Positions 6,569-58,778 of a DNA stretch of 64,000 bases are shown in pieces. Source of the stretch: Candidatus Gastranaerophilales bacterium. Its GTDB lineage: Bacteria > Cyanobacteriota > Vampirovibrionia > Gastranaerophilales > CALOAD01. The position numbers were made by a program, and so were the translations under genes. The notes below the pieces were generated by a model that saw only the letters and a list, made by a program, of their open reading frames with translations, did not search any database and was not told where the DNA came from. Within the stretch, counting starts at the first letter, position 1; each line of letters opens with the position of its first letter. The stretch spans positions 29,896-93,895 of the forward strand of contig CALOAD010000008.1 of assembly GCA_942491415.1 (NCBI GenBank). Direction: 5' to 3'.

Positions 6569-6645
<77 letters not shown>

Positions 6646-6665
6646 TTAAAACCCACACAACCCCT

Positions 6666-8423: not shown

Positions 8424-8552
8424 AATAAAAAGGTAATCGAAAATTTTGGATTTTCGGAAATGTAAAAATCAACTCGGAAGATTTCCAAAACTAGATGATA
8501 ATTTTTTCGGTCCAGGGTTGTATATGTGAACTTTAAAATTCATGTTGAAATA

Positions 8553-11814: not shown

Positions 11815-11968
11815 AAAAATAATTAGGTTATTTGAATTTCATAATAGTCCACACCCGTATCACAGAAAACATATTTTATGGATGTCGGGCATGTTTTTTT
11901 ATGTAGAATGCTAGTGCTTTAATGTCCTTGCCGTCTGACAGGCTGAGAATGTGATACTCTTTAGGCAT
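11815..11968 (-). pseudogene. Decayed 5' remnant of a PAPS-reductase-family gene (same family as P1-P4 at 48.9-58.5 kb)
   Basis: The minus strand from the ATG at 11968 reads MPKEYHILSLSDGKDIKALAFYIKK, then after a 2-nt loss MPDIH, then after about 8 nt lost YVFCDTGVD. Compare P2: KEYHILSLSGGKDSTALAFYIKENMPDIHEKIEYVFCDTGVD. Nucleotide similarity is visible across about 150 bp and is truncated at repeat R3. Confidence 0.75.
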
Positions 11969-13193: not shown

Positions 13194-13251
13194 TAAAATT
13201 CCTTTCTTACATTTAGATAGTAGATGTAAGATAAAATTAATGACTATAAAT

Positions 13252-13503: not shown

Positions 13504-13512
13504 ATCAAATTA

Positions 13513-14169: not shown

Positions 14170-14172
14170 TTT

Positions 14173-14718
14173 TTAGCTCCATTTCATTTTTAAATTATCT
14201 AAAACTTTATTTACTTTTCTTTCCGTATTAATCCTACGGTTATCTTTTGTGTCAAAAATTATATTATTTACTGCTCCACGCTTAATATATTTTTTAATAA
14301 CTCCTAGAGTGTAATGCTTTGATAGTTCAATTAATCGTGCTTTGGTTTTGTCTCCAAAGTCACCATCATATTTTACTTTCCAGCCTTTATTTGCAGCAGA
14401 AATAGCTTTCCCTTTATTTAAAAGATTAATACCCCTTTGAACATCCTTTATTGCTTGTTCTTTTCCAACATCTGCAATATGCTCTTCAATAAAGTTTAAA
14501 ATTTCTTGTGCTCTAGGACATGTCGCTAACTTGTGTTCTACTTCTTGTTTTGATGTTTCGACTTTTTGATTTTGCTGAACTTGTTTTTGACTTAATTCAT
14601 TGGAAAATGGTATTCCGCTACTACGCATTTGCTCCATAATTTCATTTTCTTTTGAAGAGAATTCATCTGATGTCATTTGGTCAATGAATTCTCGAGTGTA
14701 AATTCGTTTGTTTTTCAT
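14173..14718 (-). CDS. Hypothetical protein with peptidoglycan-binding-like motif
   Basis: 181 aa. VQRGINLL...YDGDFGDKTKARL resembles the PG_binding_1 signature (DG-x-FG-x-x-T). Confidence 0.5.
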   Translation of the reverse strand: MKNKRIYTREFIDQMTSDEFSSKENEIMEQMRSSGIPFSNELSQKQVQQNQKVETSKQEVEHKLATCPRAQEILNFIEEHIADVGKEQAIKDVQRGINLLNKGKAISAANKGWKVKYDGDFGDKTKARLIELSKHYTLGVIKKYIKRGAVNNIIFDTKDNRRINTERKVNKVLDNLKMKWS

Positions 14719-15158
14719 TTAATATTCCTTTCTATTTTATATTTTTTGCCATCAAATTTAATTAACCCCAATTCAAAAAATGGATTTTCAGGAGCATATT
14801 CTGAGTACATTTTTAGAAAGGCTTTAACGTCACGACTTATAGCTCTATCTGAAGCATCCTTAAATGTTTCTTTACAAGCTTCTATAAGCTTTTCCAATGA
14901 AAAAGAACTTTTCATTTTTGAAAAAGTAAACATCCACACCGGTAGTTCTAAAATCTGTTTATGCAGATTTTCAATACTTTTCAGGTCTTCCAAGTAGGGG
15001 TCTTCTTTTAAAATGCTTAAATCAAAAACGCTTTTCCAAAATTTTAAGCTATTGATTTTTGTTTTTCCAAGACCTGAATAATCTTCTTCTAGCATCCTTT
15101 TGAAATCTCTAAGGCAAGGATAATGCCCTTGGCTTCTGCCAATGGTGTTAATAGTCAT
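14715..15158 (-). CDS. Hypothetical protein (first gene of the island operon)
   Basis: 147 aa with a 4-nt overlap with the next gene. Preceded by two perfect palindromic sites. Confidence 0.55.
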   Translation of the reverse strand: MTINTIGRSQGHYPCLRDFKRMLEEDYSGLGKTKINSLKFWKSVFDLSILKEDPYLEDLKSIENLHKQILELPVWMFTFSKMKSSFSLEKLIEACKETFKDASDRAISRDVKAFLKMYSEYAPENPFFELGLIKFDGKKYKIERNIK

Positions 15159-47019: not shown

Positions 47020-47156
47020 AAATTATCCTTGAAATATACAAATTGAATATTTATATCAACAATTTAGCACATTGAATCTATTTAATTCCACAAAAATTAT
47101 GATTTAAAAAGCCTTAGTTAATTTTTAAATCACAACCTTTTTGATAATATAATTGT

Positions 47157-48917
47157 ATGAAAACTTTAAAATTCGGCTTTACCATAATTATTTTACTCTT
47201 TTTACTTTGGCTTTGTATTGACCATTTCTGGGGTTACAAGGTTTTAAAAGTTATAGATGGCGATACTCTCTATGTCGATCTAAATCGTAATAATAGGGCT
47301 GAAACGGAAGAAAAAATCAGAATAAAGTCTATAGATACTTTTGAAACAAAATATTCTTATCAATTATCAAAGCAATCAAGAAATTTTGGTATAACTAAAA
47401 AACAAGCTTTAGGGCTTGGTTATTTAGGCAAGGAATTTGCAAAGAAAAAGCTTTTGAATAAAAGAGTCAAATTGCAAATAGAAGGCAAAGGGGATTTTAA
47501 CAGAAAACTTGCTCATATTTATATTAACGGTAAAAACTATGAAAAATTAATCTTAAAAGAAGGCTTAGCTACTGTTTATAAACGTGCTGATGACGCAGAA
47601 AAATACCTGCAATATGAGAATACAGATAAAATAAAGCAAAATGCCCAAAAAGTCCAAAATTTAGACCTTGTGATATTGAATCTAAAAAACAACAAATATC
47701 ATAAACCCTACTGCAAATACGCCCGAAATATCAGCAGATTTGAGCTGGTAGAGAAGAAAAACCTGTCTCAAAATGCTAAAGAAGCAGGGTGTTGTGAAAA
47801 ATTAAAAGATTATAAGTCAAGTAAATTTGATGAAAAAATTTTTTTAAAAGATTTGGAAAAGAATAAAGCAGAAATGTTTTTTGTAAATCCAGTAAATGTT
47901 AAATATTCAGAAAATAGTTGTTTAAATTCGGTTTGTGGTTCATTATTAACCTTGATAAAAAGTGCTCATAAAAGTATTGATATAGCAGCCTATGGTTATT
48001 ACGGGCAAGATGATATTATAAACGCTTTAAGAGCTGCTAAACAACGAGGTGTAAAAATAAGAGGTGTTGTAGATGATACAACATACAAATTTTATCTTGA
48101 TACAAAAAAAGTACAATCTGAATTTGGATTTAAACAAGATTTTTTCACGCCAATTGGTTCAGGTAAAAAATTTAAATCAAAATTTACTCGGGAAACATCA
48201 GCATTAATGCATAATAAATTTGCAATTATAGATAATAAATATCTTTGGACAGGGTCAACTAATATTACAGATAGTGGAATGACAAAAAATGCCAATAATT
48301 CCATAGTTTTTTATTCTTCAGATATTTCTAATATTTACTTGCAAGAATTTAATCAAATGTACACAAATAATAAGTTTCATTCATTGAAAGATAAAATTTT
48401 AAATGCAAAAAATATAAAACTTAAAAAAGATTTCGATATATCGATTTATTTTTCTCCCAAGGATAAAGCTTTAAGGAATGCTGTAATACCTTTAATAAAT
48501 GAATCTACAGAAACTATAGAAATAATGATTTTTTATTTAACCAACAAAAAAGTGGTAAAAGCATTAGAAGACGCCCACTTTCGAGGTGTTAAAGTCAGAA
48601 TTATAATGGATTTTGAACCAACTGCGGAAATATATAGCCCAATAGATAGACTTAGAAAATTAGGTGTTTTAGTAAAAGCTGAGAATTGGGCAGGTAAAAT
48701 GCATATGAAAACAGCTATATTTGATAGAAAAAAAGTTGTGCTTGGTAGTACAAATTGGACTAGTACAGCAGAATATGTTAATGATGAAAATCTTTTAGTA
48801 ATAAAAAATCCAGTTATCACAACCAAAGTTTATAATGAATTTGAAAGGCTCTGGAATTCCATACCTGATAAATATTTAAAAATAAAAGCTTCAAAAAAAT
48901 ATTTTAAGAAAAAATAG
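47157..48917 (+). CDS. N1: membrane-anchored/exported staphylococcal-nuclease + double-HKD (PLD/Nuc-like) fusion, lacks the Cys-rich tail
   Basis: 586 aa. Anchor MKTLKFGFTIIILLFLLWLC. SNase motifs VIDGDT, IRIKSIDTFE, NRKLAHIY. YHKPYC...AGCC motif. HKD1 MHNKFAIIDNKYLWTGSTN. HKD2 MHMKTAIFDRKKVVLGSTN. Confidence 0.88.
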   Translation: MKTLKFGFTIIILLFLLWLCIDHFWGYKVLKVIDGDTLYVDLNRNNRAETEEKIRIKSIDTFETKYSYQLSKQSRNFGITKKQALGLGYLGKEFAKKKLLNKRVKLQIEGKGDFNRKLAHIYINGKNYEKLILKEGLATVYKRADDAEKYLQYENTDKIKQNAQKVQNLDLVILNLKNNKYHKPYCKYARNISRFELVEKKNLSQNAKEAGCCEKLKDYKSSKFDEKIFLKDLEKNKAEMFFVNPVNVKYSENSCLNSVCGSLLTLIKSAHKSIDIAAYGYYGQDDIINALRAAKQRGVKIRGVVDDTTYKFYLDTKKVQSEFGFKQDFFTPIGSGKKFKSKFTRETSALMHNKFAIIDNKYLWTGSTNITDSGMTKNANNSIVFYSSDISNIYLQEFNQMYTNNKFHSLKDKILNAKNIKLKKDFDISIYFSPKDKALRNAVIPLINESTETIEIMIFYLTNKKVVKALEDAHFRGVKVRIIMDFEPTAEIYSPIDRLRKLGVLVKAENWAGKMHMKTAIFDRKKVVLGSTNWTSTAEYVNDENLLVIKNPVITTKVYNEFERLWNSIPDKYLKIKASKKYFKKK

Positions 48918-49701
48918 TTATTAAACTTGAGGATAAATCAGTGTTTTCAAGCTTTTTTGTCATAGAATACTTTTCTTTTATTTTTTTTCTATTTTCTGGC
49001 TCTATAAGTTTTTTTAACGATAAATCTTTAATCCAATAAAAATAACCTTTTTTAATTTTGTCGTTATTGTAATATTCATAATTCATAGCTTTTTGAAATA
49101 ATTTTGGGTGGTTTTCATATAATCCGATCCATTCTATTTTTTTCTGATAAAAACAAAAATAACAACCGGAACGACTTCTCCAGTTGTAATAATCGGGGAA
49201 GCCTATTCCAGCTTTAGTTAATATATTTTCAATGTCTTTTTTTATGAGCCCTTTTTCCACAAAAGGAAAAGAAGCTTTTATATGCTCGCCGACACTTTTA
49301 TCGTTAGTAGCTCTATGGGATTCATCTGCTCTAATTCCTATATATAAATTTACGAGCTGTTTTTTTGAATTCTTTAGTTTGTCGAAAATATATTTATTAA
49401 AGGTTTTTGTTTTTAATTCAAAAGTACACCAACGATTATATTGAGTTGGTAAATATCCATTGCAATTAATCAAATGTTCAAAACTCTTTTCAGGCTTTAT
49501 TCGAGTGATTTTTTTATTTAAATAAACTTCTATTTTATTCAAATAATCATAAGTTTCAGGCAAATCACAACCGGTATCGCAAAAAACATACTCAATTTTT
49601 TCGTGGATTTCGGGCATATTTTCTTTTATATAAAACGCCAGTGCTGTAGAGTCCTTACCACCCGATAGACTTAGTATATGATATTCCTTTTCTTGTTCCA
49701 T
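48904..49701 (-). CDS. P1: PAPS-reductase-family PP-loop ATP pyrophosphatase
   Basis: 265 aa with SLSGGKDS, RWCTFELK, GIRADESHR and GCYFCF. Overlaps the N1 3' end by 14 nt. Confidence 0.88.
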   Translation of the reverse strand: MEQEKEYHILSLSGGKDSTALAFYIKENMPEIHEKIEYVFCDTGCDLPETYDYLNKIEVYLNKKITRIKPEKSFEHLINCNGYLPTQYNRWCTFELKTKTFNKYIFDKLKNSKKQLVNLYIGIRADESHRATNDKSVGEHIKASFPFVEKGLIKKDIENILTKAGIGFPDYYNWRSRSGCYFCFYQKKIEWIGLYENHPKLFQKAMNYEYYNNDKIKKGYFYWIKDLSLKKLIEPENRKKIKEKYSMTKKLENTDLSSSLITIFS

Positions 49702-50600
49702 GTAAAACTAACACTCCCAACGACTTTGTAAATATAAACAACTGTTTACTTTTATCAGGATAGCATATTTTTTTGTTTTGTAAACCCCTATATTCAGAAT
49801 CAGGTCTTTTTTTGAGGTTAATAAATCTTTAGCGGCAGGAATTTTAATATAAGAATTTATTAAAAGAACGTATTGCTTTTTACCGTCTTCTTTTTCATAG
49901 ACCCTAATTTTTGCAGATAAATCACAACCTTTTTGATAATATAATTGTATGAAAACTTTAAAATTCGGCTTTACCATAATTATTTTACTCTTTTTACTTT
50001 GGCTTTGTGTTGATCATTTCAAGGGTTATAAAGTTTTAAAGGTAATAGACGGTGATACTGTTTATATTGACCTAAATCGAAATAATAAGGGTGAAACGGA
50101 AGAAAAAATCAGAATAAAGTCTATTGATACTTTTGAAACAAAGTATTCTTACCAATTATCAAAGCAATCAAGAAATTTTGGTATAACTAAAAACAAGCTT
50201 TAGGGCTTGGTTATTTAGGCAAGGAATTTGCAAAGAAAAAGCTTTTGAATAAAAGGGTTAAGGTTGTTTTTGACGCCAACAGGTCAAAAGGTGACTATGG
50301 CAGAAAGCTGGCTCATATTTATATTAACGGTAAAAACTATGAAAAACTAATATTAAAAGAAGGATTGGCTGTTGTTTATAAACGTGCTGATGATGCAAAA
50401 GAATATTTAAAGTATGAAAACATAGAAAAAATAAAGCAAAATGCCCAAAAAGCCCGAGACTTAGACCTTGTAATACTGAATCTAAAAAACAATAAATACC
50501 ATAAACCTTATTGCAAATACGCCCATAATATTAGTAAGTTTGAACTGATTGAGAAAAAAGATTTGCCTAGGGATGCTAAACAAGCAGGATGTTGTAAGGA
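49500..50600. repeat. Conserved block B (P1 5' end + 247-bp spacer + N2 5' part); approximate edges
   Basis: Near-identical by eye to 52390-53500 and 55320-56415. Partial copies at 47127-47800 and 58300-58585. Confidence 0.8.
49734..49749. promoter_or_regulatory. Candidate operator aTAAAC-aact-GTTTAc upstream of P1
   Basis: 15/16 palindrome about 40 bp upstream of the P1 ATG. GTAAAC half-site at 49780-49785, with site starts 46 bp apart. Confidence 0.5.
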
Positions 50601-51822
50601 TTTGAAAGAGCCAATTATTTCTATAAAAGCAAACTATAGAATAAATAATCCGCCTAAAGAATTAAAATATTCAAAAAAGAATGAAATTGATACCAGCATA
50701 AAGTTGTTATTTAATAGTCCTTTAGTTTATAACGAATCGCCATCAGAAAAAAGCAAAACTCCTGTTGGAAAAACAATAATTGAAGAATTAAATAAGTTAA
50801 ATCATCAAGATATTTATATTGCAACTTATGGTTTTGCTTATCAACCTGAAATTGTAAATTCCTTTAAATATGCAGAAATTAGGGGTTATTCTCTTTTTGG
50901 TGTCGCTGATGTTGATATTCATAACAGAAGTATTTATCGAGATACTCATTATGTTATGCAACAAATAGGCAAATGGCAGACTGATCATAAGGCCAATTTA
51001 GAGCAACAAAAATATAGACCTAAATATAATGGAAGTATAATGCATAATAAATTTATAACCTTCGGCAAAAATAAAGTCTTAACAGGTTCTACAAATTTTA
51101 GCTCATCAGGAACAGGTGGTTTAAATGCTAATTTATCAATTTTGATAACTTCTCCCGTAATAACCAAAGCTTTTATCCAAGAAGCAAAGCAAATGTATGA
51201 GAAAAAATTATTTCACGAATTTAAAACACCTTACTATATAAAAAACGTAGAATTAGATGATAAAAGCATTGTTTCAGTTTATTTTTGCCCAAATCCTTTA
51301 GTTATTAATGAATTAGTTAAAAATATAGACAATGCAAAAAAATATGTTTATGTAGCAATGTTTTTTTTGACTCATAATAAAATCATTAATGCCCTTGAAA
51401 TTGCTAATAATAGAGGAGTAGATGTTAAGGTGATAACTGATGCTTCAGCAGCTCAAGAAATTTTTTCAAAACATCACAAAATAAGAGCTAAAAATATTCC
51501 TGTAAAAGTCGAAAATTGGACAGGTAAAATGCATATGAAAACTATTATTATTGATGATGAACTTTTTACGGTTGGTTCAATGAATGCTACAAAAACTGCA
51601 GAAACTAAGAATGATGAAAATATTGTTATCGTTAAAAACCCAAAATTAGCAAAAGAATTAAAAAATATTTTTAATCAATTATATATTTCTATTGACGATA
51701 AATGGTTAAAAGAAACACCATTAGCAGAGTCTTTTCAGTCCGGCAATTCTTGCAACGATGGTATTGATAATGACCACAATTGGAAATATGATAATCAAGA
51801 TAATAGTTGCAAAGTGCATTAA
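49949..51822 (+). pseudogene. N2: SNase-PLD paralog interrupted by a -1 frameshift in a poly-A run
   Basis: Track ORFs 49949..50203 and 50245..51822 together match N3 end to end. N2 has ctaaaaacaagc (A5, 50189-50193) where N1, N3 and N4 have A6. HKD1 also reads HNKFITFG (Asp replaced by Gly). Confidence 0.8.
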
Positions 51823-52589
51823 TAAAAGTCTAAAAGATTTGGTATGAAATTTTGAGTCTTAGGATTTTTTTTATTATTAGCTTTTATTTTTTCTATATTT
51901 TCAGGTAAAATAAGCTCTCTTAAAAGCATATCCATATTCCAACCAATTTTATTTTTGCCATCATCAATTTCATAAGACATAGCCTTTTCGAACAATTCAG
52001 GATTATTTTCTTTTAATCTTAACCAACTCATTTTAGTTTGATAAAAACAAAAATAACATCCGTTTCTATTGCTCCATTTATAATACTCAGGGAAATTAAT
52101 ACCATTATCAATTAATATTTTTTCAATATCAGGCTTGTTTAATCCAGCTTCTATAAAAGGATACAGTTGATTAACAAAATCTTCTCCCCCGTCAGGCTTT
52201 GATCGATGAGCCTCATCAGATCTAATTCCTATATATAAATTTAACTTTTTACAATTTTGATGAAAACGTTCTTTTTTAAATTTACTAAAAGGCTTTAATT
52301 TTAGCTCAATAGTACACCATCTTCTATGAGGAGCAGGTAGACACTTATAAATACTATATAAATGTTCAAAGCTTTTCTCAGGCTGAATATAAGTAATTTT
52401 TTTATTTAGGTAAACTTCAATTTTATTCAAATAGTCATAAGTTTCAGGTAGGTCCACCCCCGTATCGCAAAAAACATATTCGATTTTTTCGTGGATGTCG
52501 GGCATATTTTCTTTTATATAAAACGCTAATGCTGTAGAGTCCTTACCTCCCGATAGACTTAGTATATGATATTCCTTTTCTTGTTCCAT
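51819..52589 (-). CDS. P2: PAPS-reductase-family PP-loop enzyme
   Basis: 256 aa with the same motifs as P1. Its stop overlaps the N2 stop in TTAA (51819-51822). Confidence 0.88.
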   Translation of the reverse strand: MEQEKEYHILSLSGGKDSTALAFYIKENMPDIHEKIEYVFCDTGVDLPETYDYLNKIEVYLNKKITYIQPEKSFEHLYSIYKCLPAPHRRWCTIELKLKPFSKFKKERFHQNCKKLNLYIGIRSDEAHRSKPDGGEDFVNQLYPFIEAGLNKPDIEKILIDNGINFPEYYKWSNRNGCYFCFYQTKMSWLRLKENNPELFEKAMSYEIDDGKNKIGWNMDMLLRELILPENIEKIKANNKKNPKTQNFIPNLLDFY

Positions 52590-53500
52590 GTAAAACCAAC
52601 TCTCCCAACGACTTTGTGAATATAAACAACTGTTTACTTTTATCAGGATAGCATATTTTTTTGTTTTGTAAACCCCTATATTCAGAATCAGGTCTTTTTT
52701 GAGGTTAATAAATCTTTAGCGGCAGGAATTTTAATATAAGAATTTATTAAAAGAACGTATTGCTTTTTACCGTCTTCTTTTTCATAGACCCTAATTTTTG
52801 CAGATAAATCACAACCTTTTTGATAATATAATTGTATGAAAACTTTAAAATTCGGCTTTACCATAATTATTTTACTCTTTTTACTTTGGCTTTGTGTTGA
52901 TCATTTCAAGGGTTATAAAGTTTTAAAGGTAATAGACGGTGATACTATCTATGTCGATTTAAATCGTAATAATAAGGCTGAAACGGAAGAAAAAATCAGA
53001 ATAAAGTCTATTGATACTTTTGAAACAAAGTATTCTTACCAATTATCAAAGCAATCAAGAAATTTTGGTATAACTAAAAAACAAGCTTTAGGGCTTGGTT
53101 ATTTAGGCAAGGAATTTGCAAAGAAAAAGCTTTTGAATAAAAGGGTTAAGGTTGTTTTTGACGCCAACAGGTCAAAAGGTGACTATGGCAGAAAGCTGGC
53201 TCATATTTATATTAACGGTAAAAACTATGAAAAACTAATATTAAAAGAAGGATTGGCTGTTGTTTATAAACGTGCTGATGATGCAAAAGAATATTTAAAG
53301 TATGAAAACATAGAAAAAATAAAGCAAAATGCCCAAAAAGCCCGAGACTTAGACCTTGTAATACTGAATCTAAAAAACAATAAATACCATAAACCTTATT
53401 GCAAATACGCCCATAATATTAGTAAGTTTGAACTGATTGAGAAGAAGAATCTGCCTCAAAATGCCAAACAAGCCGGGTGTTGCAAGGGATTAAAAGATTT
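52390..53500. repeat. Conserved block C (P2 5' end + 246-bp spacer + N3 5' part); approximate edges
   Basis: See block B. Confidence 0.8.
52622..52637. promoter_or_regulatory. Candidate operator aTAAAC-aact-GTTTAc upstream of P2
   Basis: Same site as at 49734. GTAAAC half-site at 52668-52673. Confidence 0.5.
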
Positions 53501-54749
53501 TAAAAAGAATACTTTTAATTATAAAGATAATTCATTAGAAGTTTATTTTTTTGATCCTAATATTAACTATTTTAATCAGGCAAACGAGGGAAAATATGCT
53601 CTCATTAAAGCTATTAATGATTCAAAGAATAAATTGTATTTTGCAATTTATGGAATTTCAAACTATGACATTATGAATGCTCTTATAGCTAAATATGAGA
53701 ATGGTATTGATGTTCAATGGGTTACTGATATAAATAAATATGGAAAGAATAATTACTCTAAGACACATTTATTGCAGAAAAAAATCCATAATTTTAATAT
53801 TGATAAAATTGCTGAACAATTTAAAGCCAACCGAAATCAAAAATTTGAATATTATATTGACGGAAAGAAGTACACAAGAGAGTTTACTGATAGTCAAATT
53901 AAATATTTTACAGATCAATTAATGCATAATAAATTTTTCATTTTTGACAATGATTTAATTTCAACAGGCTCAGTTAATATGAGCGTATCGGGAATTGAAG
54001 GACAAAATGCAAATGATTTATTGATAATTAATTCACCTAAAATTAATCAAATTTACACTCAAGAATTTCAGCAGATGAAATCAGGTTTATTTCATAAACA
54101 AAAGAAAAAGATTAAGAACAAAAAACACTTAAAACTTGATAATGGCTTTAATATTTCTGTGTATTTTGCTCCTTATGATAATGATTTTATGCTTGATGTT
54201 ATTCAAATAATCAATGAAGCAAAAGATTTTATTTATATACCAATGTTTTTCTTTACGGATAAAAAAATCCCCCAAACTCTTATAAATGCTAAAGAAAGAG
54301 GCGTTGATGTTAGGGTTATACTTGATGCTACTTCAGCAGCAAGAAAATACTCAAAACACGAAATTTTAAGGGAAGCAGGAATAAAAGTTAAGGTTGAAAA
54401 CTGGGCAGGTAAAATGCATATGAAAGCATTAATTACAGAATGTTACGTGGTTACAGGCAGTTTAAACTGGACGAATAGAGCTCAGTTTTTTAACGACGAA
54501 AATTCTTTGATAATTAAAAATAAAAAATTATCTAGCATTTATAAAGAATTTTTCTTAAGTCTTTATGAGTCAATTCCCAATAAATGGTTAACTTTAAATC
54601 CAAGAGCTGAAAGCTGGGATAGTAAAGGCTCTTGTAAAGATGGTATTGATAATGACCACGATGGATATACAGATTTAAAAGATTTTGATTGTAGCAAAAA
54701 ATCCCCTCAGGGTGTTGATTTTGAAGATTATTATCATAAACAAAATTAA
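52836..54749 (+). CDS. N3: exported SNase + double-HKD fusion with Cys-rich DGIDNDHDG tail
   Basis: 637 aa. N-terminal 200 aa nearly identical to N2. HKD1 MHNKFFIFDNDLISTGSVN. HKD2 MHMKALITECYVVTGSLN (Asp position is Glu). Tail GSCKDGIDNDHDGYTDLKDFDC. Confidence 0.88.
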   Translation: MKTLKFGFTIIILLFLLWLCVDHFKGYKVLKVIDGDTIYVDLNRNNKAETEEKIRIKSIDTFETKYSYQLSKQSRNFGITKKQALGLGYLGKEFAKKKLLNKRVKVVFDANRSKGDYGRKLAHIYINGKNYEKLILKEGLAVVYKRADDAKEYLKYENIEKIKQNAQKARDLDLVILNLKNNKYHKPYCKYAHNISKFELIEKKNLPQNAKQAGCCKGLKDFKKNTFNYKDNSLEVYFFDPNINYFNQANEGKYALIKAINDSKNKLYFAIYGISNYDIMNALIAKYENGIDVQWVTDINKYGKNNYSKTHLLQKKIHNFNIDKIAEQFKANRNQKFEYYIDGKKYTREFTDSQIKYFTDQLMHNKFFIFDNDLISTGSVNMSVSGIEGQNANDLLIINSPKINQIYTQEFQQMKSGLFHKQKKKIKNKKHLKLDNGFNISVYFAPYDNDFMLDVIQIINEAKDFIYIPMFFFTDKKIPQTLINAKERGVDVRVILDATSAARKYSKHEILREAGIKVKVENWAGKMHMKALITECYVVTGSLNWTNRAQFFNDENSLIIKNKKLSSIYKEFFLSLYESIPNKWLTLNPRAESWDSKGSCKDGIDNDHDGYTDLKDFDCSKKSPQGVDFEDYYHKQN

Positions 54750-55522
54750 GCTAGTAATTCATTTAAATTCTGTTGAGCAGCTTTCTTTTTTGCTCTTTGT
54801 TCTTCAAGTTTTTTATACTTTTCTTTATAAAATTTGATATTTTGAGGTTTGCATAAATCTTTTAATCTTATTTCTTGTAGCCATCCAAGTTCTTTTTTTT
54901 CAAAATTCATTGCTTTTTTATAAAGATTCGGGTGATTTTCATAGAGCTTTATCCAATCAAGCGGATTTTGAAAAAAGCAAAAATAACAACTGGAACGTTC
55001 TTTCCATTTATAATAATCAGGCAATAATATTCCTGAATTCATTAAAATATTAACAATATCATTTTTATTTAATCCATTTTCTACAAACGGATAAATCCTA
55101 AAAAGATTTTCAGGATCATCGTAAATCCGCTTTGCACGTTGAGGTTCATCCGCTCTAAATCCAATATAATTATAAACTTTGGAATTATTTTCCAGCTTAG
55201 ATTTTATGTATTTTAAAAAAGGTAAAGTCTTTAATTCACTTGTGCACCAACGATTAGCTATGGATGGTAAAAATCCATTTGAAGATTCAACTAAATGTTC
55301 AAAACTTTTCTCTGGATGTATTCTTGTTATTTTTTTATCTAGAAAAATTTCTATCTTATTCAAATAATCATAAGTTTCAGGCAAATCTACACCGGTATCG
55401 CAAAAAACATATTCGATTTTTTCGTGGATGTCGGGCATATTTTCTTTTATATAAAACGCTAATGCTGTAGAGTCCTTACCTCCCGATAGACTTAGTATAT
55501 GATATTCCTTTTCTTGTTCCAT
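54746..55522 (-). CDS. P3: PAPS-reductase-family PP-loop enzyme
   Basis: 258 aa with SLSGGKDS, RWCTSELK, GFRADEPQR and SCYFCF. TTAA stop overlap with N3 (54746-54749). Confidence 0.88.
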   Translation of the reverse strand: MEQEKEYHILSLSGGKDSTALAFYIKENMPDIHEKIEYVFCDTGVDLPETYDYLNKIEIFLDKKITRIHPEKSFEHLVESSNGFLPSIANRWCTSELKTLPFLKYIKSKLENNSKVYNYIGFRADEPQRAKRIYDDPENLFRIYPFVENGLNKNDIVNILMNSGILLPDYYKWKERSSCYFCFFQNPLDWIKLYENHPNLYKKAMNFEKKELGWLQEIRLKDLCKPQNIKFYKEKYKKLEEQRAKKKAAQQNLNELLA

Positions 55523-56415
55523 GTAAAACCAACTCTCCCAACGACCTTGTGAATATAAACAACTGTTTACTTTTATCAGGATAGCATATTTTTTTGTTTT
55601 GTAAACCCCTATATTCAGAATCAGGTCTTTTTTGAGGTTAATAAATCTTTAGCGGCAGGAATTTTAATATAAGAATTTATTAAAAGAACGTATTGCTTTT
55701 TACCGTCTTCTTTTTCATAGACCCTAATTTTTGCAGATAAATCACAACCTTTTTGATAATATAATTGTATGAAAACTTTAAAATTCGGCTTTACCATAAT
55801 TATTTTACTCTTTTTACTTTGGCTTTGTGTTGACCATTTCAGGGGTTATAAAGTTTTAAAGGTAATAGATGGCGATACTGTTTACGTTGATTTAAACAGG
55901 AATAATAAGGCTGAAAAAGAAGAAAAAATCAGGATAAAATCTATTGATACTTTTGAAACAAAGTATTCTTACCAATTATCTAAACAATCAAAGGTTTTTG
56001 GTATAACCCAAAAACAAGCTCTCGGGCTTGGTTATTTAGGTAAGGAATTTGCCAAGAAAAAGCTTTTGAATAAAAGGGTTAAAGTGCAAATAGATGGTAA
56101 AGGGGATTTTAACAGAAAACTTGCCCATATTTATATTAACGGTCAAAACTATGAAAAGCTAATATTAAAAGAAGGGCTAGCGAGCGTATATAAGAGAGCT
56201 GATGATGCAGAAAAATACCTGCAATATGAGAATACAAATAAAATAAAGCAAAATGCCCAAAAAGCCAAAGACTTAGACCTTGTAATACTGAATCTAAAAA
56301 ACAATAAATACCATAAACCTTATTGCAAATACGCCCGTAATATCAGCAGGTTTGAACTGGTAGAGAAAAAGCATCTGCTCCAAGCAGATGCAAAACAAGC
56401 AGGGTGTTGCAAGAA
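55320..56415. repeat. Conserved block D (P3 5' end + 246-bp spacer + N4 5' part); approximate edges
   Basis: See block B. Confidence 0.8.
55555..55570. promoter_or_regulatory. Candidate operator aTAAAC-aact-GTTTAc upstream of P3
   Basis: Same site as at 49734. GTAAAC half-site at 55601-55606. Confidence 0.5.
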
Positions 56416-57649
56416 AAAAAACTTTATAAATCATAAAGAACAGAGAAAATATTTACAATCAAACAATATTACAAATCCTGTTTTTGAAAAAGCGGTTCCT
56501 GATATACAAACAAAAAATATTGAATTGTATTTTATTGATCCTACAAAATATAAAAAACCTGTAAATTATTGTCGTACTGCTGCTGTTCAAGCTTTGATTA
56601 GAGAGATTGATAAGGCTAAAAATACTATAGATTTTTCAGTATTTGGTTTTTCTAATCAACCAGAATTGATTAAATCAATAAAAAAAGCTTCTTTGCGAGG
56701 AGTAAAAGTGAGATGGGTTACAGATGTTACTCCTTGGAATTTTAATTTTTATTCGGGAACAAAAGAAGCAATGAAGAAAATTCCTAATTATAAAACTGAT
56801 TTTAATACAGATAAAAAATTGCTTGAAAAGTTTCGAAAAAAAGGAATGAAAAGTTATAACGGGACTTTAATTCATAATAAATTTTTTATAATTGATAATA
56901 AGTTAGTTTGGACTGGTTCTACAAATATTAGTTCTTCTGGGACGGGAGGTTATAATGCCAATGTTTCAGCTCTTATTCGCTCTAAAAAAATAGCTAATAT
57001 TTATACAAAAGAGTTTAATCAAATGTTTATCGAAGAAAAATTTCATAGAGATAAGCAAAAGATCTTTACTAAAAATTTGATTTTAAAGGATGGTTCTATT
57101 ATTTCTATTTATTTTTCTCCTAATCCTTCAATTATTGATGAAGGTATAACTCCTGTTATAAGTAGTTCTAACTCTTTTATTTATATGCCAATGTTTTATC
57201 TTACAAATGAAAAAATCTTCGAAGCTTTAATTGGAGCTAAAAAAAGAAATGTAGATGTGAAAATTATAGTTGATGCTCATTATGCTAAAAGCCAACATTC
57301 AAAAGTTAAAAAGCTTAGAGATGCGGGAATAAAATTGAAAGTAGAAAATTGGGGCGGTAAAATGCATATGAAATCTATGATAACGGACAATGACTATATA
57401 GTAATAGGCTCCACCAATTTTACAAAAACAGGAATAACACAAAATGATGAAAATATGTTAATTATCAAAAACTCAAAATTAAATCAAAAGTTTAAATCTG
57501 AATTTTTAAAATATTGGAAAAGTATTCCTGATAAATGGCTATATAATAGTCCTTTGCCAGAAGGCAAAGACAGTATAAATTCTTGTAGCGATGGTATAGA
57601 TAATGACCACGATGGTTATTACGATAAAAAAGATTTTGATTGTTCTTAA
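55769..57649 (+). CDS. N4: exported SNase + double-HKD fusion with Cys-rich DGIDNDHDG tail
   Basis: 626 aa. HKD1 IHNKFFIIDNKLVWTGSTN. HKD2 MHMKSMITDNDYIVIGSTN. Tail NSCSDGIDNDHDGYYDKKDFDC. Confidence 0.88.
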   Translation: MKTLKFGFTIIILLFLLWLCVDHFRGYKVLKVIDGDTVYVDLNRNNKAEKEEKIRIKSIDTFETKYSYQLSKQSKVFGITQKQALGLGYLGKEFAKKKLLNKRVKVQIDGKGDFNRKLAHIYINGQNYEKLILKEGLASVYKRADDAEKYLQYENTNKIKQNAQKAKDLDLVILNLKNNKYHKPYCKYARNISRFELVEKKHLLQADAKQAGCCKKKNFINHKEQRKYLQSNNITNPVFEKAVPDIQTKNIELYFIDPTKYKKPVNYCRTAAVQALIREIDKAKNTIDFSVFGFSNQPELIKSIKKASLRGVKVRWVTDVTPWNFNFYSGTKEAMKKIPNYKTDFNTDKKLLEKFRKKGMKSYNGTLIHNKFFIIDNKLVWTGSTNISSSGTGGYNANVSALIRSKKIANIYTKEFNQMFIEEKFHRDKQKIFTKNLILKDGSIISIYFSPNPSIIDEGITPVISSSNSFIYMPMFYLTNEKIFEALIGAKKRNVDVKIIVDAHYAKSQHSKVKKLRDAGIKLKVENWGGKMHMKSMITDNDYIVIGSTNFTKTGITQNDENMLIIKNSKLNQKFKSEFLKYWKSIPDKWLYNSPLPEGKDSINSCSDGIDNDHDGYYDKKDFDCS

Positions 57650-58500
57650 GCAAAAGATCCAATTAAAAATTTAGTTGGTAATTTTATGATTTTCTTTTTA
57701 TTTAATTCATATTTTTCTTTAATTGCTTTTATATTCTGAGGTTTAATAAGCTCCCTTAATGAAAAACCCTCTGCCCAGGTATAATTTTCCTTGCAGCAAT
57801 TTTCTTCGTAGTACATAGCTTTTTCATAAAGATCAGGATGGTTTTCAAATAGTTTAATCCATTCAATTTTCTTTTGATAAAAACAAAAATAGCAACCGGT
57901 TCGACTTCTCCATTTATAATAATCAGGATAATTTATACCATTTTTAATTAAAATTTTCTCAACATCTGCTAAATCTACACCATTATCAACAAAAGGATAT
58001 TGAGCCTTGATAAATTGTTTTTCCAATTCTGTTTTAGAGGAAAATCCTCTATCAGCTTCATCTGCCCTAATTCCAATATACAAATTTATAATACCTTCGC
58101 CTTCTTTTTCAAGTTTTTCTTTAATAAAATTCTGAGAAGTTTTGATTTTAAACTCATATGTACACCAACGTTGCTTTGCAGATGGTATCATTTTGTATTG
58201 TTCATATCTTTCATCAAAACTTTTAGGGGGTAAAAGCCGTAAAACAGGCTTATTCAAAAAAACTTCTATTTTATTGAGATAATCATAAGTTTCAGGTATT
58301 TCTAAGCCGGTATCATAGAATACATATTCTATCTGTTCGTGGATATTGGGCATATTTTCTTTTATGTAAAAAGCCAATGCTGTAGAGTCCTTACCTCCTG
58401 ATAGGCTTAGTATGTGATATTCTTTGGGTTTATAATCGCCCCTTTGGGGCTCCTTGCCTCCTGATGGGCTTAGTATATGATATTCCTTTTCTTGTTCCAT
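57646..58500 (-). CDS. P4: PAPS-reductase-family PP-loop enzyme with a duplicated 5' segment
   Basis: 284 aa. MEQEKEYHILSPSGGKE...KPKEYHILSLSGGKDS, a 63-bp in-frame repeat of the PP-loop-coding segment. TTAA stop overlap with N4 (57646-57649). Confidence 0.85.
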   Translation of the reverse strand: MEQEKEYHILSPSGGKEPQRGDYKPKEYHILSLSGGKDSTALAFYIKENMPNIHEQIEYVFYDTGLEIPETYDYLNKIEVFLNKPVLRLLPPKSFDERYEQYKMIPSAKQRWCTYEFKIKTSQNFIKEKLEKEGEGIINLYIGIRADEADRGFSSKTELEKQFIKAQYPFVDNGVDLADVEKILIKNGINYPDYYKWRSRTGCYFCFYQKKIEWIKLFENHPDLYEKAMYYEENCCKENYTWAEGFSLRELIKPQNIKAIKEKYELNKKKIIKLPTKFLIGSFA

Positions 58501-58532
58501 GTAAAACCAACTTTCCCAATGATTTTATAAAT

Positions 58533-58548
58533 ATAAACAACTGTTTAC
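58533..58548. promoter_or_regulatory. Candidate operator aTAAAC-aact-GTTTAc upstream of P4
   Basis: Same site as at 49734. GTAAAC-cctt at 58579-58588, as in the island site at 15251. Confidence 0.5.
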
Positions 58549-58778
58549 TTTTATCAGGATAGCATATTTTTTTGTTTTGTAAACCCTTTTAGACTTTTAA
58601 TCTTACATATTTAATAAAAAACAGGTTTAATCTGCTATCGGGTAGTCTTGTTGTTTAGATATAAAATCACTCTGATAATCGCAAGGTTTATTCCCTAGCG
58701 CAATGAAAAGATCTCTAAAAATTGGTTATATAAAATTAGTGATTATTCATTCTTATTAACCGTCTGTTTTTCAGCTGT

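What the first reader, a model, noticed from the sequence alone, without database searches (positions are those of the whole stretch)
49500..56415. Conservation is centred on the divergent promoters, not on genes: conserved 5' halves, diverged facing 3' halves
Seen: a block of about 1.07 kb is near-identical between units. It is made of the first ~200 bp of a P gene, the 246-247 bp spacer, and the first ~620-650 bp of the next N gene (anchor + SNase + Cys/His motif). At the protein level, P residues 1-66 and N residues 1-~207 differ at only a few positions. The ~1.8 kb between blocks holds the PLD half of N and the C-terminal two thirds of P, which meet at the convergent junction. That region has diverged to roughly one third to one half amino-acid identity by eye. 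Patchwork exists inside the blocks. N1 and N4 share K(L/V)QI(E/D)GKGDFNRK, whereas N2 and N3 share KVVFDANRSKGDYGRK. Partial blocks cap the array at 47127-47800 and 58300-58585. Inference: either gene conversion homogenises the promoter-proximal module, or variable 3' modules are being exchanged or diversified. The PLD half of N and the C-terminal part of P vary together as one physical segment. Polymorphic toxin loci show a similar pattern, with a variable C-terminal domain co-varying with its cognate partner. This suggests a specific N(PLD)-P(C-terminal) pairing.
Basis: partly seen in the sequence, partly recalled or inferred. Interest (0 to 1): 0.85.

Follow-up and report, generated by a model that had tools for sequence, protein, structure and literature searches.

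The report
Mosaic array of enzyme–nuclease gene pairs
Four tandem copies of a gene pair (a cytoplasmic SspD-like sulfur-transfer enzyme facing an exported DNA-cutting enzyme) keep their promoter-side ends almost identical by copying between copies, while their middles are ancient, distinct types also found in other gut Melainabacteria, so this looks like an undescribed offshoot of phosphorothioate DNA-marking systems.

Summary
Window 47.1-58.6 kb holds four convergent modules (N> <P). A block of about 1.07-1.09 kb (P 5' ~200 nt, a 246-247 nt spacer, N 5' ~610-650 nt) is 85-100% identical between units. The ~1.8 kb cores are only 34-52% identical in protein.

Recombination is demonstrated:
- The SNase half and the PLD half of N give contradictory trees, each with 100% bootstrap.
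- N2 and N3 share a ~480-nt identical tract with a sharp edge.
- Between species, orthologous cores are more alike than their ends, the mirror image of the within-genome pattern.

So the ends evolve in concert, and the cores (PLD half of N plus the rest of P) are old, co-inherited types under purifying selection. Part of the P 5' conservation is simply family-wide constraint.

P is a close SspD homologue; relatives about 45% identical sit in canonical sspABCD operons. N is a signal-anchored SNase plus a two-HKD, PLD3-like nuclease. Its homologues carry Sec signal peptides, so toxin-immunity-style physical pairing is unlikely. A third gene, X (an SspB/SspC-derived fusion), accompanies some modules. 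In this window X is split by an insertion.

The P-N module is conserved in all 29 Gastranaerophilales/Vampirovibrio loci that hold enough DNA downstream of P. I found no description of it.

The parts
47126..47800 (+). Left cap of the array: 31 nt of shared upstream sequence (with a TATAAT ending 4 nt before the ATG) plus the homogenised 5' half of N1 (signal anchor, SNase, Cys/His motif)
47157..48917 (+). N1: signal anchor + SNase + Cys/His motif + two PLD (HKD) domains; lacks the C-terminal acidic Cys repeat
48904..49701 (-). P1: SspD-like PAPS-reductase/PP-loop enzyme, convergent with N1 and overlapping it by 14 nt
49472..50599 (.). Conserved block 1: P1 5' ~200-230 nt + 247-nt spacer (49702-49948) + N2 5' ~610-650 nt
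49949..51822 (+). N2: same architecture as N3, but a 1-nt deletion in an A6 run near 50189 breaks the frame (ORFs 49949-50203 and 50245-51822). The first HKD motif has G in place of D. Possible pseudogene or sequencing error
51819..52589 (-). P2: SspD-like enzyme; its stop codon overlaps the N2 stop in a TTAA
52396..53504 (.). Conserved block 2: P2 5' + 246-nt spacer (52590-52835) + N3 5'. N2 and N3 are identical over nt ~130-608 of the gene
52836..54749 (+). N3: 637 aa. Predicted helix 2-25, SNase, Cys/His motif, two-HKD PLD module (structurally closest to PLD3/PLD4), acidic Cys repeat
54746..55522 (-). P3: SspD-like enzyme (model pLDDT 92.7, PAPS-reductase fold)
55293..56414 (.). Conserved block 3: P3 5' + 246-nt spacer (55523-55768) + N4 5'
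55769..57649 (+). N4: its PLD half is 91% identical to P0132 from another genome
57646..58500 (-). P4: SspD-like enzyme with a 63-nt in-frame insertion/partial duplication after codon 9 (likely a recombination scar). Its 5' coding part is only at the family baseline of similarity
58250..58591 (.). Right cap: P4 5' end plus about 90 nt of the shared P-upstream sequence, which holds promoter-like TTTACA-16-TATCCT
11961..13193 (-). X, C-terminal part: homologue of the C-terminal ~300 residues of SspC. In other genomes the intact gene sits directly upstream of P
14715..15158 (-). X, N-terminal part (DUF4007/SspB-like), separated from the rest of X by a ~1.58-kb insertion (13185-14768)
11838..11974 (-). 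Degraded P remnant directly after X (MPKEYHILSLSDGKDIKALAFYIKKHARHP*)

Best explanation
SHOWN. The region is a chromosomal tandem array of four paralogous two-gene modules. Each module is an exported nuclease N (signal anchor, staphylococcal-nuclease domain, small Cys/His motif, single-chain two-HKD PLD module) converging on, and overlapping at the stop codon with, a cytoplasmic SspD-type PP-loop enzyme P.

The mosaic has two causes:
(i) Concerted evolution. Repeated gene conversion or unequal exchange between copies homogenises the module ends: the intergenic promoter region, the first ~200 nt of P and the whole signal-SNase-Cys/His half of N. Tract edges fall at the SNase-PLD linker and about codon 66 of P.
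(ii) Family-wide purifying selection on the PP-loop N-terminus of P.

The module cores (PLD half of N plus the rest of P) are old lineages ('types'). They are shared with other Gastranaerophilales species, inherited as one segment and kept under purifying selection. A genome carries several different types.

INFERRED (roughly 0.3-0.35 on its own). The module is a reduced descendant of the SspABCD phosphorothioation machinery. P, helped where present by X (a DUF4007/SspC-C-terminal fusion), puts a backbone or similar mark on the cell's own DNA. N, sitting outside the cytoplasmic membrane, degrades DNA that lacks the matching mark. That would be a restriction-modification-like division of labour acting on DNA outside the cytoplasm, with each core type a matched specificity and the shared 5' module providing common export, anchoring, endonuclease and regulation. 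The tight convergent overlap with no terminator suggests mutual antisense or transcriptional interference between N and P.
For: Pattern and breakpoints.

Recombination:
- SNase+Cys/His tree: {N1-N4 + P0132} 100% bootstrap, N2+N3 100%.
- PLD tree: N4+P0132 100%, N1+P0138 100%, N3+P0122-P0131 100%, N1-N4 monophyly 0%.
- Shared polymorphic sites are clustered, permutation p <= 0.005 for every pair, with 39 N1N4|N2N3 sites in one stretch.
- dS is 0.52-0.64 (0.09 for N2/N3) in the N 5' half, against >1.1 (saturated) in the PLD half.

The baseline excludes constraint alone for N. External pairs average 0.25 identity in the TM region, 0.49 in SNase and 0.45 in PLD. The paralogues score 0.92-1.0, 0.84-0.98 and 0.34-0.44.

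Mirror image between orthologues: L024/L025 P codons 1-66 dS 1.42 vs core 0.11; L013.3/L018.1 1.75 vs 0.62; L021/L023 0.64 vs 0.07. N 5' dS is 0.23-0.26 vs PLD 0.10.

Other genomes show the same thing:
- L011/L023: signal 0.96, SNase 0.88, PLD 0.38.
- L028/L030: 0.83, 0.86, 0.46.
- The best nucleotide repeats in arrays L013, L016 and L029 lie at intergenic regions and 5' ends.

Core co-inheritance: Mantel r = 0.82 between the P core and PLD, with the same nearest neighbour in 19 of 36 modules. For SNase vs PLD r = 0.22 and 3 of 19. Purifying selection on cores: omega 0.03-0.31.

Identity of P:
- PADLOC SspD 1e-81 to 1e-89 over the full length.
- Invariant SGGKDS and Cys93/179/182; PAPS-reductase fold.
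- Homologues about 45% identical sit in sspBCD/sspABCD operons.

Identity of N: PF00565 plus two PF13091 domains; Nuc/NucT/Zucchini sequence hits; PLD3/PLD4-like fold, TM-score to target 0.6-0.69; signal peptides in homologues.

Module conservation: a convergent PLD gene follows P in the 29 non-redundant Gastranaerophilales/Vampirovibrio loci that hold enough DNA downstream of P; L009 and the short contig L015 show none. X.
Against: - Except for N2/N3 and the spacer, the 'conserved' coding ends are not recent copies (dS ~0.5-0.6). Conversion is therefore old or patchy, and the near-identity of the spacer could instead reflect strong regulatory constraint.
- Intragenomic conversion of the ends cannot be cleanly separated from import of foreign cores by double crossover in the conserved arms.
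- On function: no P-loop ATPase, intact SspB or SspA lies near the modules, and every known phosphorothioation system needs an NTPase (PMC12914056).
- X is split by an insertion in this window and is absent within 10 kb of most modules.
- An exported nuclease never meets the chromosome, so classical restriction-modification logic does not apply directly.
- Nothing here shows that P modifies DNA or that N is sensitive to a modification.
- Export is inferred from N-terminal sequences only; no signal-peptide predictor was available.
- The source is probably a metagenome-assembled contig. A ~480-nt identical tract exceeds short-read length, so module order and the N2 frameshift may be assembly errors.
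Confidence: 0.7

Rival explanations
1. Cassette replacement rather than homogenisation. The array arose by recent duplication of one module. The cores were then swapped for foreign PLD+P segments imported from other strains by double crossover in the two conserved arms (N 5' half and P 5' end), as happens at capsule or O-antigen loci.
For: Each core has a closer relative in another genome than within the array: N4 91% to P0132, N1 63% to P0138, N3 ~60% to P0122-P0129, P1 69% to P0013. The conserved arms flank the variable core on both sides. The same PLD type occurs with and without an SNase domain in different genomes, e.g. W3 type vs L010.1 and W4 type vs L020.1.
Against: The P-side arm is only 72-78% identical in nucleotides between species, which is poor substrate for homologous recombination. 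The N-side arms differ strongly between species (SNase ~0.5 identity to most external homologues). The ends of orthologous modules are more diverged than the cores, which is what overwriting of ends within genomes predicts. The N1N4|N2N3 patchwork inside the arms needs exchange between resident copies. The two processes are not mutually exclusive.
Confidence: 0.2
2. Polymorphic toxin-immunity logic. N is a toxin with a conserved delivery half and a variable toxic PLD tip. P is its cognate immunity protein and binds that tip, and the pair diversifies together under an arms race.
For: N has a conserved N-terminal half and a variable C-terminal half. The neighbouring gene co-varies with that half. 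N is exported. There are several different types per genome.
Against: P is a cytoplasmic enzyme with every catalytic residue invariant, and it is orthologous to SspD of sspABCD operons. N and P should sit in different compartments. The PLD halves are all homologous, all copies are full length with promoters, and the gene orientation is convergent. Cores are under purifying selection (omega 0.03-0.31). No secretion-system, Rhs, CDI or other toxin-delivery genes appear in the gene tables of the four neighbourhoods read or beside the array in the window. An indirect version, immunity through DNA modification, is kept as the novel case.
Confidence: 0.08
3. No recombination. The pattern simply reflects stronger purifying selection on the SNase domain, the PP-loop and the promoter than on the rest.
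For: The first 66 residues of P are 78% identical family-wide against 52% for the rest. dN/dS in the conserved halves is ~0.1. Among Gastranaerophilales species representatives the SNase part averages 0.69 identity against 0.44 for PLD.
Against: The trees are incongruent with 100% bootstrap. The signal/TM segment is 92-100% identical within the array against 25-29% between genomes. Synonymous divergence is halved in the 5' part, and N2/N3 share a ~480-nt identical tract. The non-coding spacer is ~99% identical yet has no match in other species.
Confidence: 0.03
4. Assembly artefact. Reads from several strains or dispersed paralogues were collapsed or chimerically joined at the shared 1-kb repeat, creating an apparent tandem array.
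For: The source is probably a metagenome-assembled genome. Identical tracts exceed short-read length. There is a homopolymer frameshift in N2. In other MAGs, modules with shared ends lie on separate contigs, as expected if repeats break assemblies.
Against: Four distinct cores and three nearly but not perfectly identical spacers, each with private differences, are assembled in a 171-kb contig. Arrays of 2-3 modules occur in independent assemblies, including Clostridium sp. CAG:768. The recombination signal rests on protein trees that include other genomes, not on module order.
Confidence: 0.05
5. N is only a nutrient-scavenging or biofilm-remodelling extracellular nuclease, and P has an unrelated cytoplasmic role. 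Their linkage is regulatory (convergent overlap) or historical.
For: Exported SNase and PLD nucleases commonly serve scavenging. The N architecture resembles NucT/EcnA-type enzymes. No ATPase or nickase partner for P lies nearby.
Against: The strict convergent adjacency is kept in the 29 loci with enough downstream DNA, across species, through domain loss or gain in N, and through duplication. P core and PLD types are co-inherited. Some modules sit beside CRISPR-Cas, TIR or Mrr-like genes.
Confidence: 0.12

Closest known systems
SspABCD(-SspE/FGH) single-strand DNA phosphorothioation defence systems (and the related BREX type 4 BrxP/BrxC)
   Same: P is a full-length SspD homologue with the PP-loop and Cys triad (PADLOC 1e-81 to 1e-89). 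Its ~45%-identical relatives are the SspD of canonical operons. X carries DUF4007 (SspB-like) and SspC C-terminal homology. A nuclease is encoded next to the modification gene.
   Different: No SspA, no intact SspB nickase and no P-loop ATPase part of SspC. The partner nuclease is an exported SNase-PLD protein rather than SspE/SspFGH. The genes are convergent. Modules occur in multi-type tandem arrays.
PLD-superfamily nucleases: Nuc (pKM101), NucT (Helicobacter), Zucchini/MitoPLD, and lysosomal PLD3/PLD4 5' exonucleases
   Same: HKD motifs; sequence hits to Nuc, NucT and Zucchini. The single-chain two-HKD fold is closest to PLD3/PLD4. Like PLD3/PLD4, N has an N-terminal membrane anchor with the catalytic part outside the cytoplasm. 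Nuc and NucT are also exported.
   Different: Fused to a staphylococcal nuclease domain, a Cys/His motif and (N2-N4) an acidic Cys repeat. Genetically coupled to an SspD-like gene. Substrate not tested, so phospholipase activity is not excluded.
Polymorphic toxin loci (CDI, Rhs, MafB) with conserved N-terminal parts, variable C-terminal tips and cognate immunity genes
   Same: Conserved 5' half, variable 3' half co-inherited with the neighbouring gene, several variants per genome, and recombination in the conserved part.
   Different: The variable halves are homologous PLD domains. The partner is a conserved enzyme, convergent rather than downstream. There are no orphan 5'-less cassettes and no dedicated secretion system. 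Cores are under purifying selection.
Concerted evolution in bacterial multigene families, and conserved-arm/variable-core mosaics (type I hsdS genes, capsule/O-antigen loci)
   Same: Homogenised segments with sharp edges. Paralogues resemble each other in one segment and resemble orthologues in another. Conserved arms flank variable specificity-determining cores.
   Different: Here the homogenised unit is a divergent promoter region plus the 5' ends of two different genes. The core spans the 3' parts of two convergent genes.
Dnd/Pbe-associated HKD nucleases (PbeA: HKD endonuclease fused to an SF2 helicase), described in PMC10853773
   Same: An HKD-family nuclease is encoded next to a PAPS-reductase-type modification gene. 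One canonical ssp locus fetched here (L081) has a PbeA-like gene right after sspD.
   Different: N has no helicase, carries a signal anchor and an SNase domain, and is convergent with P.

Membership tests
SspD / PAPS-reductase-type PP-loop ATP pyrophosphatase (protein family of P) | PP-loop motif SGGxDS near the N-terminus | tested here: met
   SGGKDS is present in P1-P4 and invariant in 26 aligned homologues
SspD / PAPS-reductase-type PP-loop ATP pyrophosphatase (protein family of P) | Full-length match to the family profile, and the PAPS-reductase fold | tested here: met
   PF01507 scores 41.9-43.3 bits against a cut-off of 22.5. PADLOC SspD gives 270-297 bits over profile positions 2-240 of 277. 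The AlphaFold model has pLDDT 92.7, and its best PDB matches are PAPS/APS reductases
SspD / PAPS-reductase-type PP-loop ATP pyrophosphatase (protein family of P) | Conserved cysteines (RWC...GCYFC) as in DndC/SspD-type sulfur transferases | tested here: met
   C93, C179 and C182 are invariant. Their role as cluster or persulfide ligands is inferred from knowledge of DndC/TtuA-type enzymes
SspABCD phosphorothioation system (system membership) | SspC P-loop ATPase encoded with SspD | tested here: not met
   X matches only SspC profile positions ~740-1050. No ATPase gene lies next to any module
SspABCD phosphorothioation system (system membership) | SspB (DUF4007) nickase | tested here: not met
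   Only a ~130-residue DUF4007 N-terminal piece exists, fused to X in relatives (P0242). In the window it is cut off from X by an insertion
SspABCD phosphorothioation system (system membership) | SspA cysteine desulfurase in the operon | tested here: not met
   None among the ORFs next to the array or next to X. A housekeeping IscS elsewhere cannot be excluded
SspABCD phosphorothioation system (system membership) | Phosphorothioate modification of DNA | not testable with these tools
   Needs LC-MS/MS of PT dinucleotides or iodine-cleavage mapping
PLD-superfamily (HKD) nuclease | Two HxK(x)4D(x)6GSxN motifs forming one active site | tested here: met
   Two PF13091 domains. H364/K366 and H528/K530 are invariant. 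N2 has G for D in motif 1. The fold matches PLD3/PLD4 and 7e0m
PLD-superfamily (HKD) nuclease | Nuclease rather than phospholipase or cardiolipin-synthase activity | not testable with these tools
   Sequence hits include both nucleases (Nuc, NucT, Zucchini) and cardiolipin synthases. The fused SNase domain favours nucleic acid as substrate (inference)
Staphylococcal nuclease (SNase) domain | OB-fold SNase domain with Ca-binding and catalytic residues (DGDT ... R ... DTxE ... R) | tested here: met
   PF00565 scores 40-44 bits against a cut-off of 21, with thermonuclease PDB hits. The motifs VIDGDT, IRIKSIDTFE and (N/G)RKLAHIY can be read in all four copies
Polymorphic toxin-immunity locus | Variable C-terminal toxin domains of different folds on a conserved N-terminal delivery region | tested here: not met
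   All four variable halves are homologous two-HKD PLD modules at 34-44% identity
Polymorphic toxin-immunity locus | Small cognate immunity protein encoded immediately downstream on the same strand, binding the toxin | tested here: not met
   The partner is a 256-284 aa conserved enzyme on the opposite strand. N homologues have Sec signal peptides and P does not. Binding itself was not testable
Polymorphic toxin-immunity locus | Orphan 5'-truncated toxin-tip/immunity cassettes downstream of a full gene | tested here: not met
   All four N genes are full length with a start codon and shared upstream region
Concerted evolution by gene conversion among tandem paralogues | Different segments of the same genes give significantly different trees | tested here: met
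   200 bootstraps, with 100% support for conflicting groupings
Concerted evolution by gene conversion among tandem paralogues | Identical or near-identical tracts with sharp edges, and clustered shared polymorphisms | tested here: met
   p <= 0.005; chi2 150-345
Concerted evolution by gene conversion among tandem paralogues | Converted segments more alike within a genome than between orthologues, and unconverted segments the reverse | tested here: met
Restriction-modification-like defence module | Nuclease acts in the same compartment as the modified chromosome | tested here: not met
   N carries a signal anchor and its homologues carry cleavable signal peptides. This is inferred from sequence, not from a localisation experiment

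The most novel reading that the evidence does not exclude
The P-N(-X) module is a new kind of self/non-self system that works outside the cytoplasm. A reduced Ssp-type enzyme marks the cell's own DNA, and a matched, exported SNase-PLD nuclease destroys unmarked DNA in the periplasm or at the cell surface. That would gate DNA uptake to kin. Alternatively, N would act as an inter-bacterial nuclease toxin against which a DNA mark, not a binding protein, gives immunity. The several co-inherited core types per genome would be distinct mark/nuclease specificities. Concerted evolution would keep a common export/SNase/promoter module.
Probability: 0.15. Interest if true: 0.9.

Novelty: new variant of a known kind. 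Interest (0 to 1): 0.62.

Why it matters
1. This is a clean natural example of segment-specific concerted evolution. The homogenised unit is a divergent promoter plus the 5' ends of two different genes, and the mirror-image signature shows up in several genomes.

2. It exposes a gene module that I could not find described: an SspD-type enzyme tied to an exported SNase/PLD nuclease, sometimes with an SspB/SspC-derived fusion protein. The module is conserved in all 29 Gastranaerophilales/Vampirovibrio loci with enough downstream DNA and comes in many types. Known phosphorothioation systems all need an NTPase and act inside the cell. A version without the ATPase, coupled to an extracytoplasmic nuclease, is hard to explain. 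It is directly testable and bears on how gut Melainabacteria handle foreign or extracellular DNA.

3. Annotation pipelines would currently call these genes 'PAPS reductase family protein' and 'phospholipase D-like/thermonuclease', and would miss the link between them.

Tried and rejected
- Literature searches on PAPS reductase + PLD + defence, SspD + PLD, PptA/PptB, PAPS reductase + nuclease + signal peptide, and Gastranaerophilales + phosphorothioate found no description of the module.
- The only solved relative of P by sequence is PDB 21fy chain C, 'PptA' (1e-8 to 1e-9). I could not find its paper. X has no solved relative.
- Rfam search of 46-60 kb returned only a sub-threshold SECIS_1 hit, taken as chance.
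- The spacer has no convincing inverted repeat or terminator, and its promoter-like hits are not above shuffled expectation.
- The 89-aa ORF in the P1-N2 spacer is not conserved in the other spacers, so I rejected it as a gene.
- Two metagenome scans (a spacer 30-mer, and the N 5' protein half) found no close relative, so array composition in sister strains could not be compared.
- Exact look-ups of P0132 and P0001 found no contig on record, so the closest related genome could not be read.
- The viral-contig scan gave one close hit and otherwise only distant phage PAPS reductases, so there is no sign that the module is phage-borne.
- dN/dS between paralogous cores is uninformative because dS is saturated. 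I used orthologous pairs instead.
- GARD, RDP and AlphaFold-Multimer were not available. I substituted maximum chi-square, a GENECONV-style permutation, bootstrapped NJ trees and Mantel tests.

Full report
ANATOMY. ORF listing and repeat finding show four head-to-tail units between 47.1 and 58.6 kb. Each unit is a plus-strand gene N (586-637 aa) converging on a minus-strand gene P (256-284 aa):
- N1 47157-48917 / P1 48904-49701
- N2 49949-51822 / P2 51819-52589
- N3 52836-54749 / P3 54746-55522
- N4 55769-57649 / P4 57646-58500

The stop codons of N2-N4 and P2-P4 overlap in a TTAA, and N1/P1 overlap by 14 nt. No terminator-like site lies at these junctions. N2 carries a 1-nt deletion in an A6 run near 50189 that breaks the frame. 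The surrounding window is ordinary chromosome: PNPase, EngA, L19, RNase HII, DnaG, RpoD, YhdP and a dGTPase-like HD protein. It has 27-35% G+C.

CHECKING THE OBSERVATION. A MAFFT alignment of the four units with 100-nt windows shows mean identity of 0.99 at the N start. Identity is 0.80-0.93 over the next ~600 nt, drops to 0.24-0.65 through the PLD half and 0.26-0.70 through the P 3' part, and climbs back to 0.82-0.94 over the last ~200 nt of P and the spacer.

Maximum chi-square breakpoints lie at 47795-47816, 50556-50599, 53444-53504 and 56410-56414 on the N side (chi2 150-345). On the P side they lie at 49472-49514, 52396-52423 and 55293-55356. The three 246-247-nt spacers differ by about four substitutions and one T-run indel. 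The left cap starts 31 nt before N1. The right cap runs ~90 nt past the P4 start. Protein identities in the variable part are 34-44% (PLD) and 45-52% (P residues 67-end).

Two points were overstated:
- The first 66 residues of P4 are only 77-79% identical to the others.
- The N 5' halves are 84-90% identical (98% for N2/N3), with synonymous divergence of 0.52-0.64 (0.09 for N2/N3). Only the spacer and the N2/N3 tract are truly near-identical.

WHAT THE GENES ARE: P. P has a PAPS-reductase domain (PF01507). It matches the PADLOC SspD profile over its full length at 1e-81 to 1e-89. An alignment of 26 homologues keeps SGGKDS and three cysteines invariant. The AlphaFold model (pLDDT 92.7) has the PAPS/APS-reductase PP-loop fold. 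A scan of species-representative genomes, followed by tblastn typing of the fetched loci, shows that relatives ~41-49% identical in Chloroflexota, Poribacteria, Planctomycetota, Acidobacteriota and other phyla sit just downstream of an SspC-like gene. Two of these loci were confirmed as canonical operons:
- L081: SspB 1e-116, SspC E = 0, SspD 1e-111, followed by a PbeA-like HKD-helicase.
- L049, a Cyanobacteriota MAG: SspA-SspB-SspC-SspD.

WHAT THE GENES ARE: N. N has an SNase domain and two PLD-like domains. It hits Nuc, NucT, Zucchini and thermonuclease structures by sequence. It also gives sub-threshold matches to an 'acidic double-disulfide repeat' at the C-terminus of N3 and N4. Its model (pLDDT 88.4) has an N-terminal helix 2-25. 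Its PLD module is structurally closest to a bacterial PLD (7e0m), the lysosomal 5' exonucleases PLD3/PLD4 and vaccinia F13. Both HKD histidine/lysine pairs are invariant.

N homologues from other Gastranaerophilales mostly begin with textbook Sec signal peptides, for example MKKILAIALILTTVSILPVSAS. I therefore take N to be exported or anchored with its catalytic part outside the cytoplasm. This is an inference from sequence.

A CONSERVED MODULE AND A THIRD GENE. Of the 31 non-redundant Gastranaerophilales/Vampirovibrio loci fetched, 29 have P followed by a convergent PLD gene, with or without the SNase domain. The exceptions are L009 and the 3.2-kb contig L015, which ends just after P. Some modules sit next to type I-C CRISPR-Cas (L001-L004), a TIR gene (L007) or an Mrr-like gene (L005). 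Arrays of two or three modules occur in L013 (Clostridium sp. CAG:768), L016 and L029. Several MAGs hold two or three modules on separate contigs.

In about nine of these loci a gene X lies directly upstream of P. X is ~455 aa and matches only the C-terminal ~300 positions of SspC profiles (1e-45). The closest relatives of the window's X are 537-548 aa, and one of them carries a DUF4007 (SspB-type) N-terminal region.

The window has its own X 34 kb upstream of the array, but it is broken. Residues 2-127 of P0242 map to 15143-14769 and residues 135-548 to 13184-11964. The two pieces are separated by a ~1.58-kb insertion with three ORFs, and are followed by a degraded P remnant at 11974-11838. 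No ATPase, intact SspB or SspA lies near the modules.

WHY THE ENDS ARE CONSERVED: P. Among 117 external homologues the first 66 residues are 78% identical on average, against 52% for the rest. The 5' ~190 nt even match other species at 72-78% in nucleotides. Much of the P pattern is therefore plain constraint, and P4 sits at that baseline.

WHY THE ENDS ARE CONSERVED: N. Constraint cannot explain N. External pairs average 0.25 (signal/TM), 0.49 (SNase), 0.40 (Cys/His) and 0.45 (PLD). The four paralogues score 0.92-1.0, 0.84-0.98, 0.80-0.93 and 0.34-0.44. Each PLD half has a closer relative in another genome than in the array: N4 is 91% identical to P0132, N1 63% to P0138 and N3 ~60% to P0122-P0129. 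The same holds for P cores (P1 69% to P0013, P2 63% to P0096).

Bootstrapped NJ trees (200 replicates) conflict:
- SNase+Cys/His segment: {N1-N4 + P0132} 100% and N2+N3 100%.
- PLD segment: N4+P0132, N1+P0138 and N3+P0122-P0131 each 100%, and N1-N4 monophyly 0%.

Within the 5' block, N2 and N3 are identical over nt ~130-608 and then diverge abruptly. Thirty-nine informative sites in columns 340-640 split N1N4|N2N3. Shared polymorphic sites are clustered for every pair (permutation p <= 0.005). Synonymous divergence is about half as high in the 5' part as in the saturated 3' part. P4 carries a 63-nt in-frame partial duplication right where the shared 5' sequence ends. It looks like a junction scar.

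GENERALITY AND DIRECTION. Across 36 modules from Gastranaerophilales genomes, the P core and the PLD half are inherited together. Mantel r is 0.82 (p <= 0.0005), and they share the same nearest neighbour in 19 of 36 modules. The SNase half is nearly uncoupled from the PLD half of its own gene (r = 0.22; 3 of 19).

Other genomes repeat the within-genome mosaic:
- L011/L023: signal 0.96, SNase 0.88, PLD 0.38.
- L028/L030: 0.83, 0.86, 0.46.
- In arrays L013, L016 and L029 the best nucleotide repeats (87-94%) sit on the intergenic regions and gene starts.

Between orthologous modules of different species the pattern inverts. Cores are more alike than ends, for example P codons 1-66 dS 1.42 against core 0.11 (L024/L025), 1.75 against 0.62 (L013.3/L018.1) and 0.64 against 0.07 (L021/L023). 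N 5' dS is 0.23-0.26 against PLD 0.10. That is the signature of ends being overwritten within genomes.

The same comparison gives omega 0.03-0.24 for PLD and 0.04-0.31 for the P core. The types are therefore maintained by purifying selection and are not visibly racing. The same PLD type can occur with or without an SNase domain, so the 5' module behaves as an exchangeable unit.

INTERPRETATION. The evolutionary explanation is well supported: concerted evolution of the module ends, ancient co-inherited cores, and intrinsic constraint on the PP-loop end of P. I cannot fully separate conversion between resident copies from import of foreign cores through the conserved arms. The weak inter-species similarity of the arms and the inverted orthologue pattern favour the former.

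P is a conserved cytoplasmic enzyme, N is exported, the variable halves are homologous, and linkage alone explains co-variation, because diverged cores have no homology left to recombine.

Functionally, my best guess is a reduced Ssp-type marking enzyme paired with an extracytoplasmic nuclease. In that reading the core types are matched specificities and the shared 5' module provides common export, anchoring, endonuclease and regulation. This guess is inference, and it faces real objections. There is no NTPase, which all known phosphorothioation systems require (PMC12914056). X is absent or broken. The nuclease and the chromosome are in different compartments.

CAVEATS. The contig is probably from a metagenome assembly. 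Identical tracts longer than a short read could mis-order modules or create the N2 frameshift. The recombination evidence does not depend on module order. Trees are NJ on p-type distances. dN/dS is Nei-Gojobori with Jukes-Cantor correction and is unreliable where dS exceeds 1. Taxonomy of the window is inferred from the nearest homologues (Candidatus Gastranaerophilales), not from marker genes.

Noticed in passing
window 11838-15158 (- strand): Decayed copy of the ancestral X-P locus. The X gene (a DUF4007 + SspC-C-terminal fusion in its closest relatives) is split by a ~1.58-kb insertion at 13185-14768. It is followed by a ~45-codon remnant of a fifth P gene with a ruined PP-loop (SDGKDI).
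   Followed up: yes
window 13513-14169 (-): One of the three ORFs inside the insertion that splits X encodes a protein with a clear serum amyloid A domain (PF00277, 1.6e-18). That is an unusual domain for a bacterium.
   Followed up: no
window 49949-50245: N2 is broken by a single-base deletion in an A6 homopolymer, and its first HKD motif has G instead of D. This could be decay, a slippage-prone switch or a sequencing error.
   Followed up: partly
window 58411-58473: P4 has a 63-nt in-frame insertion after codon 9 that partly repeats the gene's own start (MEQEKEYHILSPSGGKE...KPKEYHILSLSGGKDS) and contains a GC-rich CCCCAAAGGGGCG. It is probably a scar of the exchange that pasted the shared 5' end onto P4.
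   Followed up: partly
window 47148-47159 and equivalents before N2-N4: A TATAAT ends 4 nt before the N start codon and there is no Shine-Dalgarno-like sequence, so N mRNAs may be leaderless.
   Followed up: no
window 49708-49977 (-): An 89-aa ORF fills the P1-N2 spacer, but a T-run length difference interrupts it in the other two near-identical spacers. It is probably not a gene.
   Followed up: partly
window 54683-54745 (-): Sub-threshold Rfam SECIS_1 match (33.2 bits against a gathering score of 35) at the 3' end of N3, next to the N3/P3 junction. Probably chance.
   Followed up: no
window 6569-6741: tRNA-Ile(GAT) and tRNA-Ala(TGC) lie side by side, as in an rRNA spacer, but no rRNA gene flanks them.
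   Followed up: no
window 6947-10907 (-): A Fic-motif protein (6947-8041) and a 784-aa protein of unknown function ending in a SEC-C motif (8553-10907) lie next to the decayed X-P locus. Together they look like a small island of accessory or defence genes.
   Followed up: no
window 26767-30342 (-): A 1191-aa protein with a double zinc ribbon, an AAA_16 ATPase domain and TPR repeats (STAND-like).
   Followed up: no
L001-L004 9722-9997: A 91-aa P fragment sits directly upstream of the full P gene, next to a type I-C CRISPR-Cas locus. It is likely a remnant of a lost neighbouring module.
   Followed up: no
L081 10824-12971: In a canonical sspBCD operon (Desulfosarcina MAG), the gene right after sspD is PbeA-like (HKD nuclease-helicase, 2e-190). 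This is another case of an HKD nuclease coupled to SspD.
   Followed up: no
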